DNA from: the human T2T-CHM13v2.0 reference genome, Homo sapiens
DNA length: 64,000 nucleotides
Direction: 5' to 3' (one strand)
Assembly (NCBI RefSeq): GCF_009914755.1
Contig: NC_060932.1
Under the pieces are notes generated by a model, which was not told the origin of the DNA, searched no databases, and saw only the letters and a list, made by a program, of their open reading frames with translations. The translations under genes and the position numbers were made by a program. Position 1 is the first letter of the stretch, and each line of letters begins with the position of its first letter. Below are positions 15,543-19,767 of the stretch, in pieces.

Positions 15543-16981
15543 TAGAAATTGCGCTTCATAAATTATACAAATAATTTTTGCAAGTTGTAAGACATTTGGA
15601 AAACACACAAAAAATAAAAAAATTATTCCCCAATGAGAAATAATCACTGATAACACTTTTGTATATTTCTTAGCATGTTTTTATTTTCTATATATGTATA
15701 TAAAATTGGAATCCTCTATATTAGTTTTGCATCCTGCTTATTAATATTGTGTTGTGAACATTTTACCATTTTTTCCTTAAATATGGCTTATGTTTCCTTA
15801 ATGGCTGGTTTTCTGTTGTTTATGGATATATTATAAAATATTGAACAATTCCCTTATTATAGGATATTTATATTGCCTATATTGTTTCTTTAATTACATG
15901 AACACAGATGATCTTCATTTAATAGAAGGATGGTTTTTTTCTTCAAAATTTTTTTCTTTCTTTCCATAGGACTCTGCTTGATAGATTTTTTCTAATAAAA
16001 TTTATGTATAGTAGTTTTGAAAATTAGATAGTTTCTCTCATTATCCATGTAATCCACTAGATCCCAGAATGTAGAAAGGATGCAGTAAAATTTATTAGAT
16101 CACACATCCTTTCAGGGATAATGACAATATTCTGATAAAATATTAGTTGTACTACTGAAAATATTAACACTACCACTTAAACATGAGCCATAATACTGTG
16201 TTATACCCAAAGTAGAAAACAAAATGTTGAAACAAAGAATATAAACTAGAACCACAGAATCTAGAAGTAAAACTGTCTCCATATCTTATTTCATGTACTT
16301 TTTTTTTCACTGAACTAGCTAGTACTCTCCAAACCATAAGAAATTGTCAAACATCTTAGTACTTATAACTTTACAATAAAGGTCATTCTTTTTTATTATT
16401 TATTTAAACAAACTCTTTAATCATACGCACATAAGGGGAATAAAGGGCAACACCAGGCTGACTGGGGAAGGGAGCAAGATATTCTCCCTTTGTCCCAATG
16501 TCTGCTTGGCACAGTTCTGAGATCATACAAGTGGGAGTGGGTTGGGAAACAGAATAAGTGAGAGGACAGAAGAGACAAAGGCAAGAGGGGAGAGGCAAGG
16601 GCTTGCAGTAGTCTCAATCAGTGGACTCTACACAGATTCACTCAGCGCAAGGTCCCAGTAATGTTCAGCCCCATGCTTTCTGAAATGCTCATGAGCTATG
16701 TTCTCTATAGGACACTGTTTAAACTTCATCTCTCCAAAGCTCCGGTCTTTGGCTGTACCCTCCCAGAATAGTACACATTTGTTGGTTTTCTTCACAGCTT
16801 CCTCATCAGGTTCCTCATGATCATCTCCCTTTGTGTTAGATGTCTGTTCATCCCACTTTATCCGATGCAGCATAAGATGCTTCAATTTCTTCTGGGTCTT
16901 GGGGCCCCCTTCCACTACTACCACGTTGACACCCTTGTGCAGTAACACCACTCCTATCAGGTACAGTTGCCCAGCATTGGC

Positions 16982-17074
16982 CTCAATCTTGAACTTCTTG
17001 GCTGGGGTGCTAAATTTCTAACTCCATCTCAATCTTGAACTTCTTGGCTGGGGTGCTCAAATTTCTAACTCCAT
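16982..17074. repeat. 46/47-bp tandem duplication within the PRPF3 pseudogene
   Basis: ctcaatcttgaacttcttggctggggtgct(c)aaatttctaactccat occurs twice. Confidence 0.95.
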
Positions 17075-18661
17075 ATACAGATACGTGTACCCCCTGTGAA
17101 ATGTCTTAAGCTTTTAAATTTTCTTGACCTTTCTGTGTTTTGCTGTGAGTTTTCAGGCAGAGTTGGCCTCTTCATGCAATTTCTGTCTTTTTGCCATCTG
17201 AGCTGTGACATGGGCTTCTACCTTCGTGGGGTCTTGAACAGCTTCTGTTCCTAATACTCGCATCAAATTAGAAATTCTCACTTTGGGTTCTGGAGGAGGC
17301 ATCAGGCCCAGCCTGACTTTTTCTAGTAGTTCCTTCTGTGCTTCCCTCCTTGTCTGTCTCTGAAGTTTTTTCTGTTCCTTCTTGGTAAGATACACTCCCA
17401 AAGTAACTGGTGTGTCATTGTCAACTGGAGCATTGAGCTGGGCTGGATGTTCAACAAGATTTGTGATTCCAAAATAATCTTCTCTCTTGGGATTTTCCTC
17501 TCTAAGGTTAAAGCCATTGGGGATTATGTAAGAGTCCCACCACTCAATTTCAGGGATATCTCCTTCCTTTAGCTCCTTCCTAGGAGCAATAAGGGCAAGC
17601 CTAGTCAAAGTATGGATGTCTGTTTTTTGAGCTGCTTGTGAAATCTCTGCCTGAAGCTTCTCCAGTTGAGCCTTTGTCCTTAATCGCTGAGCAGTCTTCT
17701 CAAATTTGCCCTTGTCATGGAATTTAAAAGTGCGTTTCTGGCGCTGGGAAGCGACAGTGGAGACTCGGGGTCAAAAAAGGTATTGGACTCCATGTCTTCT
17801 GATGGCTTTTCTTTTAGCTGTTGCTTGAATGGTTCCCTCCGAAGAGGGAACAGCACGAATATTGGCAGGAGTAGACATGCAGTGTGTCAGCTCAATCTCC
17901 TTGCCTGTTGCATCTACAATGCACCCTTGCTCATCTAGGATCAGTGGTGTAGGTTTAATTTGGTCTTTTAACTCCCCCTTTGGGGAAGCAATGCCCATGT
18001 CATGGAGATTAGACGGGCCCACCATGTTGGCATTGCTGATGAGTCCTGGCTTCAGTGCCAGCCCGGCTTGGATTCGAGCTTGTAGTTCAGCTGTTTTCCT
18101 TGCCTTCTCAATGGCATCATTCATGAAAGTGGCACCCTGGGAGGGCTGAATAGTGTGGCCAATTGGAAGTTGCTCTGGTTGGGAGGAAGAAGGAGTCTTT
18201 GGCTGAGGTGTAGGGGGGCTAATGAAGCACAGCTGTTTTTTCCTCTCCTGGATTTGCCATTTTGCTGCGTCCATCATCTGTTTGATGTGGAGCTTAGTCA
18301 GCATGCCAGGACTCTGATGGAGGCCCAGGGATCACCTCTGGCTCTTCTTCCACCTTCTCAAAATGGGGTATTTGCTGCTTCTTTACTCCTGATGATTCCT
18401 TGGAGAGCTCAAGAGTCATCACCAAACACCTTCTTTAGCTTTCGTTTTCTGCTTCCGTCACTGCTAGACTTGGAATGCCTAGAGCTTCCGCCTTCCTCCT
18501 ACAGCCTCAGTTTGTCCACAAATCGGGGAGTAGAATCATCAAGAAAAGGTTTCAGATGATCGGCTGCCTTCTTCTTGTCCATGCTCTTCCCTACAGCAGT
18601 TCAATGCTGCTGTGACCACTGTAGGCTCTGAGAAACCCAGCACGCTTTTCACTGTCTTCTC

Positions 18662-18794
18662 ACCCACCTTGGAGCCTCCCAAATTGCTGGGATTACAGGC
18701 GTGAGCCACCGCGCCCTGCCTGACATCACTGATAAATTAGGGAGAAAAGATTAAGGAAGAGTGGCTAATTGTAGTTATCAACGACTGTGAAAGG
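18662..18794 (-). repeat. Inverted copy of 19292-19420 inserted into the PRPF3 pseudo-CDS at codon ~15
   Basis: Reverse complement reads ctttcacagtcgttgataactacaattagcc...caaggtgggtg versus ctttcacagtcgtgataactagaattagcc...caaggcgggtg. Confidence 0.92.
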
Positions 18795-18889
18795 ATCCAT
18801 GGTTTCAGCTCATCCAGCTCCCTCTTAGTGCCATTTTTCAGGAAAAAGAATAGCTCAAATGGGACTCAATACTACAGCTCACAAACTTC

Positions 18890-19130
18890 AGCCCCGAGAC
18901 GGAGGCCGAAAGTTAAACCGGAACCAGAAACCTTCTGACTGCCCTAGGCCTGTTGTCCCTATCGCCACGGCAGCTGCCACGCCGCTGTCTCCCAACACGT
19001 GACCAGAGTGGGCCGGGCCGCCAATTCGTGCAGCCATGTTTGCCACTTTCCTGGAGGCAGAGCGCATGCGTCGCAGAACCGAAACGTTTCCGTGAACAAG
19101 TTGCTTGCTTTCTGTTTCCCGGACTAAGCC
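18890..19130. promoter_or_regulatory. CpG-rich promoter-like segment inside the PRPF3 retrocopy
   Basis: About 18 CpGs in ~240 bp; CCGGAA 18918-18923, CACGTGAC 18996-19003, CCAAT 19021-19025, GCCATGTT 19033-19040, GCGCATGCG 19062-19070. Confidence 0.6.
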
Positions 19131-19767
19131 TGTTTCTGCCAAGTTAATGTCTTTAACTTCCTGAAGCGGAAATTAGGCTACTTGCAGTTTTCCTTATATG
19201 GAGAATAAGTGCGCAAAAGTAAACTGCTAGAACGAAGAGTGAGGCTTCTGCGTTTGTGCTCAAACATAGCCTTTCTGATAGAAAGTAAATACTTTCACAG
19301 TCGTGATAACTAGAATTAGCCATCCCTCCTTAACCTTTTCTCCCTAATTTAACAGTGGCGTCAGGCTGGGCCGGTGGCTCATGTTTGTAATCCCAGCACT
19401 TTGGGAGGCCAAGGCGGGTGGACCACTTGAGGTCAGGAGTTCGAGACCAGCCTGGCCAACATAATGAAACCCCGCCTCTACTCTAAAGGTCATTCTTTGA
19501 TGCTCAGTTTTTCCAGCTACTTATATTTATTGATGTCTTTCCAGATCTATTTTTATTAATAATTATATAGCTTGTTAGTATATTTTTGGATGAGATATAT
19601 GTAATCAATACATACTTTAAAAATATACTATAAAGATAAGGAATGAAAATTCCAAGTCTTTTATTGTAATCTCTTCTTCCTCATGTTAATGTCCCAAACA
19701 GAGCTGAGGAATGACTAGGAAACTATGCCTCCGTTAACCTGTCTCCATCTCATTTTTAGCAAATGAT

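What the first reader, a model, noticed from the sequence alone, without database searches (positions are those of the whole stretch)
16377..19498. PRPF3 retrocopy appears to have carried its parent's promoter with it
Seen: the 15-bp TSD TAAAGGTCATTCTTT lies at 16377-16391 and 19484-19498, so the insertion extends ~650 bp upstream of the ATG. That stretch includes the spliced 5'UTR, a CpG-rich block, ~230 bp of AT-rich sequence and an oppositely oriented Alu left arm (19364-19483) cut off at the TSD. Established: processed pseudogenes normally start at or downstream of the TSS and lack promoters. Inference: L1 copied a transcript initiated well upstream (alternative TSS or read-through), placing a housekeeping promoter in intron 6 of PPP1R42.
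Basis: partly seen in the sequence, partly recalled or inferred. Interest (0 to 1): 0.8.

Follow-up and report, generated by a model that had tools for sequence, protein, structure and literature searches.

The report
PRPF3 retrocopy that includes parental promoter DNA
This is an old, dead, L1-made copy of the spliced PRPF3 mRNA that also copied about 550 bases of DNA upstream of the parent gene's start site, a rare but already described way for a promoter to travel with a retrocopy.

Summary
The 15-bp direct repeat is exact at 16377-16391 and 19484-19498. It encloses a spliced, polyadenylated PRPF3 copy on the minus strand that runs 649 bp upstream of the ATG and 547 bp upstream of the RefSeq mRNA start.

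The proposed test was run against the window's own genome. Window 19405-18878 is colinear with chr1 directly upstream of PRPF3: Alu head, AT-rich unique DNA, CpG-rich core promoter, exon 1. Three later changes in the parent interrupt this:
- a 304-bp Alu insertion with its own 13-bp duplication, for which the retrocopy keeps the empty site;
- a 43-bp deletion;
- loss of all but 44 bp of the upstream Alu.

So the source RNA began at least 547 bp upstream of today's start site.

Nothing suggests the carried promoter still works. CpG loss is the same as in the exons, the coding frame is broken and no transcript is annotated.

Promoter carry-over by retrocopies is in print (Okamura and Nakai 2008; Carelli et al. 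2016). This is a new, unusually long example.

One extra oddity: a 131-bp inverted copy of the upstream segment sits precisely inside exon 2 and is as old as the retrocopy.

The parts
16377..16391 (-). Target-site duplication, the copy next to the poly(A) end
   Evidence: Exact 15-mer, 2 copies in the window, 0 of 100 shuffles reach 2
16392..16402 (-). Degenerate poly(A) tail remnant (11 nt, A-rich), following the parental ATTAAA signal
   Evidence: The parent 3' end aligns up to 16403 = C1:149478276. The parent then continues with unrelated sequence
16403..18662 (-). PRPF3 exon 2 (second part) to exon 16, all introns removed. Many frameshifting indels
   Evidence: 15 consecutive exon matches to C1:149449988-149478276. 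94.9% identity over 2303 aligned bases including the first part of exon 2 (18795-18876), K2P 0.053. Indel list
16981..17074 (-). 47-bp tandem duplication inside exon 13. The copies differ only by two 1-bp indels, so it is younger than the insertion
   Evidence: The parent segment C1:149471068-149471110 matches twice
18663..18794 (+). Inverted templated insertion ('B'): reverse complement of 19420-19290 (Alu head plus unique flank), placed inside exon 2 with no exon base lost
   Evidence: 86% to query 64-195; inverted arms; 88.2% of 127 aligned, K2P 0.131; 92.9% to C1:149445838-149445769 on the opposite strand. Junctions
18795..18877 (-). PRPF3 exon 2, first part, with the ATG at 18834-18832
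   Evidence: Match to C1:149449887-149449986. The parent exon 2 is continuous across the point where B is inserted
18878..18936 (-). PRPF3 exon 1 as in RefSeq. The mRNA start maps to C1:149446524
   Evidence: Alignment. 18936 is the pseudogene start in the hub's gene table
18937..19132 (-). Copy of the parental CpG-rich core promoter (the 196 bp directly upstream of the RefSeq start)
   Evidence: 86.2% identity to C1:149446322-149446523. GC 0.60, CpG o/e 0.85 against 1.21 in the parent
19133..19363 (-). Copy of AT-rich unique DNA further upstream of PRPF3. Includes 43 bp now missing from the parent
   Evidence: 95.2% over 187 aligned bases to C1:149445812-149446001. The parent's Alu with its 13-bp duplication lies between this block and the promoter
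19364..19482 (-). Antisense Alu left arm. Its last 42 bases (19405-19364) align with the 44-bp Alu head left in the parent (about C1:149445769-149445811)
19483..19483 (-). One extra G at the 5' junction, neither Alu nor target site
   Evidence: 36 of the 38 strongest Alu matches start at query base 2. 5 of 5 Alus inspected have T or C, not G, at this place
19484..19498 (-). Target-site duplication, the copy at the 5' end of the retrocopy

Best explanation
An L1-mediated retrocopy (processed pseudogene) of PRPF3, inserted in sense orientation into intron 6 of PPP1R42. By inference this happened roughly 35-45 million years ago.

Its RNA template was a fully spliced, polyadenylated PRPF3 transcript whose 5' end lay at least 547 nt upstream of today's RefSeq start site. 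The RNA itself therefore contained the CpG-rich core promoter, about 230 nt of AT-rich upstream DNA and part of an antisense Alu. Reverse transcription at an L1-type nick copied all of this between 15-bp target-site duplications.

- **Shown:** the boundaries, intron loss, and colinearity with the parental upstream DNA.
- **Inferred:** the RNA began at an upstream start site in the Alu, and the single extra G at the 5' junction is what copying of a cap would leave. Alternatively, it was a longer upstream or read-through RNA cut short at the 5' junction.
- **Present state:** the copy is inert. The coding frame is broken, the promoter copy has lost CpGs at the same rate as the exons, and no transcript is annotated.
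- **Inverted segment:** at or very near the time of insertion, a snap-back template switch of a DNA polymerase copied 131 nt of the upstream segment in inverted orientation into exon 2.
For: - **Direct repeat.** Exact 15-bp duplication, 0 of 100 shuffles reach 2 copies.
- **Intron loss.** All exon junctions are spliced. The exon matches are ordered along C1:149446326-149478276.
- **3' end.** A poly(A) remnant follows the parental ATTAAA signal.
- **Colinearity upstream.** 19134-18867 matches C1:149446326-149446594 and 19405-19133 matches C1:149445769-149446001. These are the only non-Alu hits outside the window in the 3.1-Gb genome.
- **Interruption explained.** The 317-bp break in the parent is a 304-bp Alu plus one copy of its 13-bp duplication. 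The retrocopy has the uninterrupted site.
- **Age.** Exon identity 94.9%, K2P 0.053.
- **No protection of CpGs.** Retained: promoter 11 of 21, exons 15 of 37, Fisher p = 0.42.
- **Broken frame.** Frameshifting indels begin right after the ATG.
- **Extra G.**
- **Inverted block B.** Precise insertion with 3-nt (ATA, now ATC) and 1-nt (G) microhomologies. The divergence between B and its direct copy, K2P 0.131, is at least twice the retrocopy-lineage divergence, so B dates to about the time of insertion.
- **Precedent.** Passages of PMC2386082 and PMC4772013.
Against: - The parent in this genome has only 44 bp of the upstream Alu, whereas the retrocopy has 119 bp. The outermost 77 bp (19482-19406) therefore have no counterpart upstream of PRPF3 today. 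I explain this by a later deletion in the parent, because a 5' head-only Alu fragment cannot arise by truncation at insertion. That is inference.
- The AT-rich block is less diverged (4.8%) than two neutrally evolving copies should be, and the promoter block more diverged (13.8%). The samples are small.
- The inferred L1 cleavage site, CTTT/GA, matches the recalled TTTT/AA consensus at only 4 of 6 positions.
- No expression, methylation or outgroup data could be consulted. 'Inert' rests on sequence decay and on the absence of annotation alone.
Confidence: 0.85

Rival explanations
1. The template was a long read-through or intergenic transcript, for example from the same-strand upstream neighbour. 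The 5' end at 19483 is then an ordinary 5' truncation joint, not a start site.
For: A Ribosomal_S21-domain exon lies on the same strand at C1:149433018-149433131, about 13.4 kb upstream of the PRPF3 start. I recall the gene name as MRPS21. The last four bases of the duplication (TTTA) resemble the T-rich stretch that precedes AGTAGAG in other antisense Alus, so a microhomology joint is possible.
Against: The microhomology reading needs a further 2-nt insertion, whereas the cap reading needs only one extra G. Nothing upstream of the Alu is preserved that could show a longer RNA. The two readings differ only in where the RNA began. Both put the promoter inside the retrocopy.
Confidence: 0.4
2. 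The outer 77 bp of the Alu (19482-19406) do not come from the PRPF3 locus. The L1 reverse transcriptase, on reaching the 44-nt Alu fragment in the PRPF3 upstream RNA, switched by homology to another RNA containing an antisense Alu. The result would be a chimeric 5' end.
For: The present parent has only 44 bp of Alu, followed upstream by about 100 bp of unrelated unique DNA. I recall that template switching by L1 reverse transcriptase is documented for U6/L1 chimeras. PMC4476161 appeared in the listing but I did not read it.
Against: A 5'-head-only Alu fragment in the parent itself requires a deletion, so a later deletion is the simpler account. The inverted copy B also carries about 15 Alu bases beyond the parent's 44-bp limit and agrees with the direct copy there.
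Confidence: 0.12
3. The inherited promoter is, or long was, active at the new site, driving an unannotated transcript or an internal PPP1R42 isoform.
For: The block still has GC 0.60 and CpG o/e 0.85 over 196 bp. Three perfectly conserved runs of 22, 18 and 30 bp hold 9 of the 11 retained CpGs (my reading of the alignment). About 3% of expressed retrocopies use an inherited promoter (PMC4772013).
Against: CpG retention does not differ from that in the exons (p = 0.42). The hub's RefSeq table lists no transcript, no functional element and only a 'Curated Genomic' pseudogene. The coding frame is destroyed. A search for the locus name in the paper library found 0 papers.
Confidence: 0.1

Closest known systems
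Retrogenes that carry the parental core promoter (Okamura and Nakai 2008, PMC2386082, e.g. PABPC1/PABPC3)
   Same: Sequence upstream of the parent's annotated start site lies inside the retrocopy because the template RNA started further upstream. The parent has a CpG-island promoter, as did 27 of their 29 source genes (abstract and passages read).
   Different: Their cases are transcribed, functional retrogenes, and the passages I read attribute the carry-over to scattered start sites around the core promoter. Here the copy is a dead pseudogene. The carried stretch is 547 bp and runs beyond the CpG island into AT-rich DNA and an Alu.
'Parental promoter inheritance' class of Carelli et al. 2016 (PMC4772013, e.g. 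hsa_retrop24247)
   Same: The region upstream of the copy aligns to the parental locus. This is explained by a transcript from an upstream alternative promoter (passages read).
   Different: Their six human and seven mouse cases were defined from CAGE-supported, robustly expressed retrocopies. No expression is known here. I did not open their Supplemental Table S4, so I cannot say whether this locus is listed.
Twin-priming 5' inversions of L1 and processed pseudogenes
   Same: An inverted piece of the same template lies inside a duplication-flanked insertion.
   Different: Here the inverted piece is internal, 689 bp from the 5' end. It duplicates a segment that is also present in direct orientation, and the flanking exon sequence is uninterrupted. 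This fits a snap-back template switch, not twin priming.

Membership tests
L1-mediated processed pseudogene (retrocopy) | All introns of the parent removed | tested here: met
   16 exon blocks of C1:149446524-149478276 are contiguous in the window. Exon 1/2 junction shown
L1-mediated processed pseudogene (retrocopy) | Flanking target-site duplication | tested here: met
   15 bp, exact. 0 of 100 shuffles give two copies
L1-mediated processed pseudogene (retrocopy) | Poly(A) tail at the parental polyadenylation site | tested here: met
   11-nt A-rich remnant at 16392-16402, directly after the last parent-matching base and downstream of ATTAAA
L1-mediated processed pseudogene (retrocopy) | Insertion at an L1 endonuclease-like site (TTTT/AA, consensus recalled) | tested here: inconclusive
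   The inferred site is CTTT/GA, 4 of 6 positions
Retrocopy with inherited parental promoter | Sequence upstream of the parental start site lies inside the duplication-bounded insert and is colinear with the parental locus | tested here: met
   382 aligned bases upstream of the RefSeq start, plus 42 bp of shared Alu head
Retrocopy with inherited parental promoter | The retrocopy is transcribed from the inherited sequence | not testable with these tools
   No CAGE, RNA-seq or chromatin data are held. The hub's gene table shows no transcript. CpG decay equals that in the exons
Twin-priming 5' inversion | The inverted segment abuts the 5' duplication and replaces the direct copy of that part of the RNA | tested here: not met
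   B is internal (18663-18794) and duplicates 19420-19290, which is also present in direct orientation

The most novel reading that the evidence does not exclude
The 131-bp inverted insertion in exon 2 arose in the same integration event as the retrocopy. During second-strand synthesis, the nascent sense strand would have snapped back onto itself (or onto the still-present RNA) at a 3-nt microhomology, copied 131 nt, and then returned to exactly the next base of the cDNA. The locus would then be a natural fossil of template jumping in the poorly understood second half of L1 integration. It would sit on a template that, unusually, also carried its own promoter.
Probability: 0.3. Interest if true: 0.45.

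Novelty: new member of a known kind. Interest (0 to 1): 0.3.

Why it matters
The locus is a clean, duplication-bounded example showing that a housekeeping gene's whole core promoter, plus several hundred bases beyond it, can be mobilised through RNA. It records that the PRPF3 locus produced a spliced transcript starting at least 547 nt upstream of the present start site in an ancestral primate germline.

It also acts as a dated snapshot of the parental promoter region. From it one can read that the parent later gained an Alu 204 bp upstream of its start site, lost 43 bp and lost most of an older Alu.

It does not change current understanding, because promoter carry-over is documented, and nothing indicates a function at the new site.

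Tried and rejected
- **Protection from methylation.** I tested whether the carried promoter was protected by comparing CpG retention. Promoter 11 of 21 against exons 15 of 37, p = 0.42. Kept versus TG/CA was 11:5 against 15:16, p = 0.23. No support.
- **B as an alternative exon.** I considered the 132-bp RefSeq gap to be an alternative or Alu-derived PRPF3 exon, or retained intron. Rejected: it interrupts exon 2 in mid-exon, and the parent is continuous there.
- **B as twin priming.** Rejected on geometry (see the membership test).
- **Other PRPF3 retrocopies.** I looked for further copies whose 5' ends could show a recurrent upstream start. None exist. The 16 matches are this copy and 15 parental exon blocks.
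- **Literature on the locus.** 'LOC100288001' found 0 papers. 'PRPF3' with 'processed pseudogene' found 3 papers, none about this locus judging by title and abstract.
- **Literature on internal inverted duplications.** I read passages of PMC12016303 for internal inverted duplications in retrocopies. Nothing relevant. PMC5860796 confirmed only that untemplated 5'-junction nucleotides are a recognised hallmark of L1 integration. The link between an extra G and the cap is recalled, not read.
- **Preprint.** The bioRxiv preprint 10.64898/2026.06.26.734816 restates only the general rule that retrocopies lack parental promoters (one passage).
- **Empty site in outgroup primates.** No primate genome other than the window's own is held, so this test was not possible.
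Full report
**1. What is in the window**

Read on the minus strand, the region has this order:
- a 15-bp repeat at 19498-19484;
- one G at 19483;
- an antisense Alu left arm at 19482-19364;
- 231 bp of AT-rich unique DNA at 19363-19133 (GC 0.39);
- a 196-bp CpG-rich block at 19132-18937 (GC 0.60, CpG observed/expected 0.85);
- PRPF3 exon 1 at 18936-18878;
- exon 2 with the ATG at 18834-18832;
- the remaining exons down to 16403;
- an 11-nt A-rich tail remnant at 16402-16392;
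- the second copy of the 15-bp repeat at 16391-16377.

The 15-mer occurs exactly twice in the 64 kb, and none of 100 dinucleotide-preserving shuffles gave two matches. The insert therefore reaches 649 bp upstream of the ATG. It reaches 547 bp upstream of base 18936, where the RefSeq pseudogene alignment (the mRNA 5' end) begins according to the hub's table.

**2. The proposed test against the parental locus**

The window's own genome is searchable. A search with 18840-19483 (minus strand, 644 bases) returned 57 matches. Apart from the window itself and an inverted internal copy in the window (section 5), the non-Alu matches are two:
- C1:149446326-149446594, query 350-617, 86%, E 9.6e-82;
- C1:149445769-149446001, query 79-351, 77% with gaps, E 1.8e-62.

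All other rows are Alu left arms covering roughly query bases 2-120.

I fetched C1:149436001-149486000 and aligned it. The PRPF3 exons follow in order from 149446524 to 149478276, so this is the parent gene.

Upstream of exon 1 the retrocopy and the parent are colinear from the Alu head to the exon 1 donor site. Window 19405-19133 pairs with C1:149445769-149446001, and 19132-18878 pairs with C1:149446322-149446584.

The 317 bp that separate the two parental blocks are a 304-bp Alu (149446004-149446307) plus the second copy of its 13-bp duplication CTTGGCAGAAATC. I call this Alu 'AluY-like' from memory only. The two duplication copies lie at 149445991-149446003 and 149446308-149446320. The retrocopy has the uninterrupted single site. 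That Alu therefore entered the parental promoter region, 204 bp upstream of the start site, after the retrocopy was made.

**3. Differences that need explaining**

- **(a) A 43-bp gap in the parent.** The parent lacks 43 bp that the retrocopy has at about 19332-19290. Both copies of this segment inside the retrocopy carry them, so the parent lost them later.
- **(b) A 9-bp indel.** It lies next to the Alu duplication site.
- **(c) A shortened Alu in the parent.** The parent keeps only 44 bp of the antisense Alu, namely its 5' head at about C1:149445769-149445811. About 100 bp of unrelated unique DNA precede it, and then a sense Alu with its own duplication. The retrocopy has 119 bp of this Alu.

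  A 5'-head-only Alu piece cannot result from truncation at insertion, which removes heads, not tails. The parental Alu must therefore have been cut down by a deletion. I infer that this happened after retroposition.

  The alternative is a homology-guided switch of the reverse transcriptase to another Alu-containing RNA. It cannot be excluded without outgroup genomes, and I give it about 0.12.

**4. Age and state**

| Block | Identity | Aligned bases |
|---|---|---|
| Exons 2-16 | 94.9% | 2303 |
| Exon 1 | 93.2% | 59 |
| CpG-rich promoter block | 86.2% | 195 |
| AT-rich block | 95.2% | 187 |

For exons 2-16 there are 77 transitions and 40 transversions, K2P 0.053, and the non-CpG mismatch rate is 3.9%.

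The parental exons are strongly constrained, so most of the roughly 5% lies on the retrocopy lineage. With recalled primate substitution rates, this places the insertion very roughly 35-45 million years ago. That is an inference, not a measurement.

The copy is dead as a gene. A 5-nt and a 4-nt deletion follow the ATG, and many further indels that are not multiples of three are listed.

I asked whether the carried promoter had stayed unmethylated in the germline, as an active CpG island would. Of the parental CpGs, 11 of 21 survive in the promoter block and 15 of 37 in exons 2-16 (Fisher p = 0.42). Kept versus TG/CA is 11:5 against 15:16 (p = 0.23). There is no sign of protection. The still-high CpG observed/expected value of 0.85 simply reflects a very rich starting point, 1.21 in the parent.

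The hub's table lists no transcript or functional element here. The locus name is absent from the searchable paper library.

**5. An inverted templated insertion inside exon 2**

RefSeq splits the pseudogene alignment at 18663-18794. This 132-bp block is not an intron remnant or an alternative exon. Parental exon 2 is continuous across the point, C1:149449887-149450087.

The block is the reverse complement of 19420-19290, that is, the Alu head plus 75 bp of the unique flank. The supporting figures are:
- 86%;
- inverted arms of 68 nt and 38 nt, 87% and 89% complementary;
- 88.2% of 127 aligned bases, K2P 0.131.

It also matches the parental upstream DNA on the opposite strand, 92.9% over 70 bp.

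It sits between ...ATGGATA and GAGAAG... of exon 2 with no exon base lost. There is a 3-nt microhomology at the entry junction (ATA, now ATC) and a 1-nt microhomology at the exit junction (G).

In the 73 bp where parent, direct copy and inverted copy can all be compared, the three are about equally distant, with no clear shared derived changes. The distance of 0.131 between the two retrocopy copies is at least twice the per-lineage divergence inferred from the exons. The block is therefore as old as the insertion, within wide error.

First-strand cDNA synthesis cannot produce this polarity from the same RNA. A snap-back of a nascent sense strand can. That could have happened during second-strand synthesis of the integration, or in an early replication round. 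Twin priming does not fit, because the piece is internal and duplicative.

**6. Where did the RNA start?**

Base 19483 (G) belongs neither to the target nor to the Alu:
- the 3' copy of the duplication is followed by T;
- 36 of the 38 strongest Alu matches begin at query base 2, one at base 1 and one at base 3;
- 5 of 5 inspected Alus have T or C before AGTAGAG.

Untemplated 5'-junction nucleotides are a recognised hallmark of L1 integration (passage in PMC5860796). I recall, but did not read here, that an extra G is attributed to copying of the cap. On that reading the RNA was capped at the A of AGTAGAG inside the antisense Alu, which would be a true upstream start site.

The other reading is a 5'-truncation joint using the TTTA shared by the duplication end and the T-rich Alu linker. 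It needs an additional 2-nt insertion. A same-strand gene with a Ribosomal_S21 domain ends about 13.4 kb upstream, so read-through is geometrically possible. I cannot decide between these. Both put the promoter inside the RNA.

**7. Comparison with what is known**

[quoted passage not shown] They ascribed this to scattered start sites, especially in CpG islands.

Carelli et al. [quoted passage not shown] They explained it by an upstream alternative promoter.

The present locus meets the structural criterion of this class and is unusually long. At 547 bp it reaches beyond the CpG island. Its expression criterion cannot be tested here. PRPF3 is not mentioned in the main text of PMC2386082. I did not open the supplementary tables of either paper.

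**8. Verdict**

The phenomenon is known, the copy appears inert, and the interest is modest. The inverted templated insertion is the least ordinary feature and would repay a look in other primates.

Noticed in passing
L010 / G000:C1:149446004-149446307 (parent locus): A 304-bp sense Alu with a 13-bp duplication (CTTGGCAGAAATC) sits 204 bp upstream of the PRPF3 RefSeq start. The retrocopy preserves the pre-insertion state, so this Alu entered the parental promoter region after the retrocopy was made.
   Followed up: yes
window 18663-18794 and 19290-19420: The two form a 131-bp inverted repeat (88% identical, about 495 bp apart) that brackets the copied promoter, exon 1 and the start of exon 2. 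The internal arm is a precise microhomology-flanked insertion in exon 2, of about the same age as the retrocopy.
   Followed up: yes
window 16981-17074: A 47-bp tandem duplication within the exon 13 part of the retrocopy. The copies differ only by two 1-bp indels, so it is much younger than the insertion.
   Followed up: partly
L009 / G000:C1:149445769-149445811: The parent keeps only a 44-bp 5' head of the antisense Alu and lacks 43 bp of the adjacent unique DNA that the retrocopy has. The PRPF3 upstream region has suffered at least two deletions since the retrocopy was made.
   Followed up: partly
window 19133-19363 vs C1:149445812-149446001: The AT-rich upstream block differs by only 4.8% (9 of 187), about the same as the constrained exons. 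The CpG-rich promoter block differs by 13.8%. This may hint at constraint on the AT-rich block in the parent, or be chance in a small sample.
   Followed up: no
window 18970-19085: Within the copied promoter, three runs of 22, 18 and 30 bp are identical to the parent and contain 9 of the 11 surviving CpGs. I judged this not significant from a rough run-length estimate and ran no formal test.
   Followed up: partly
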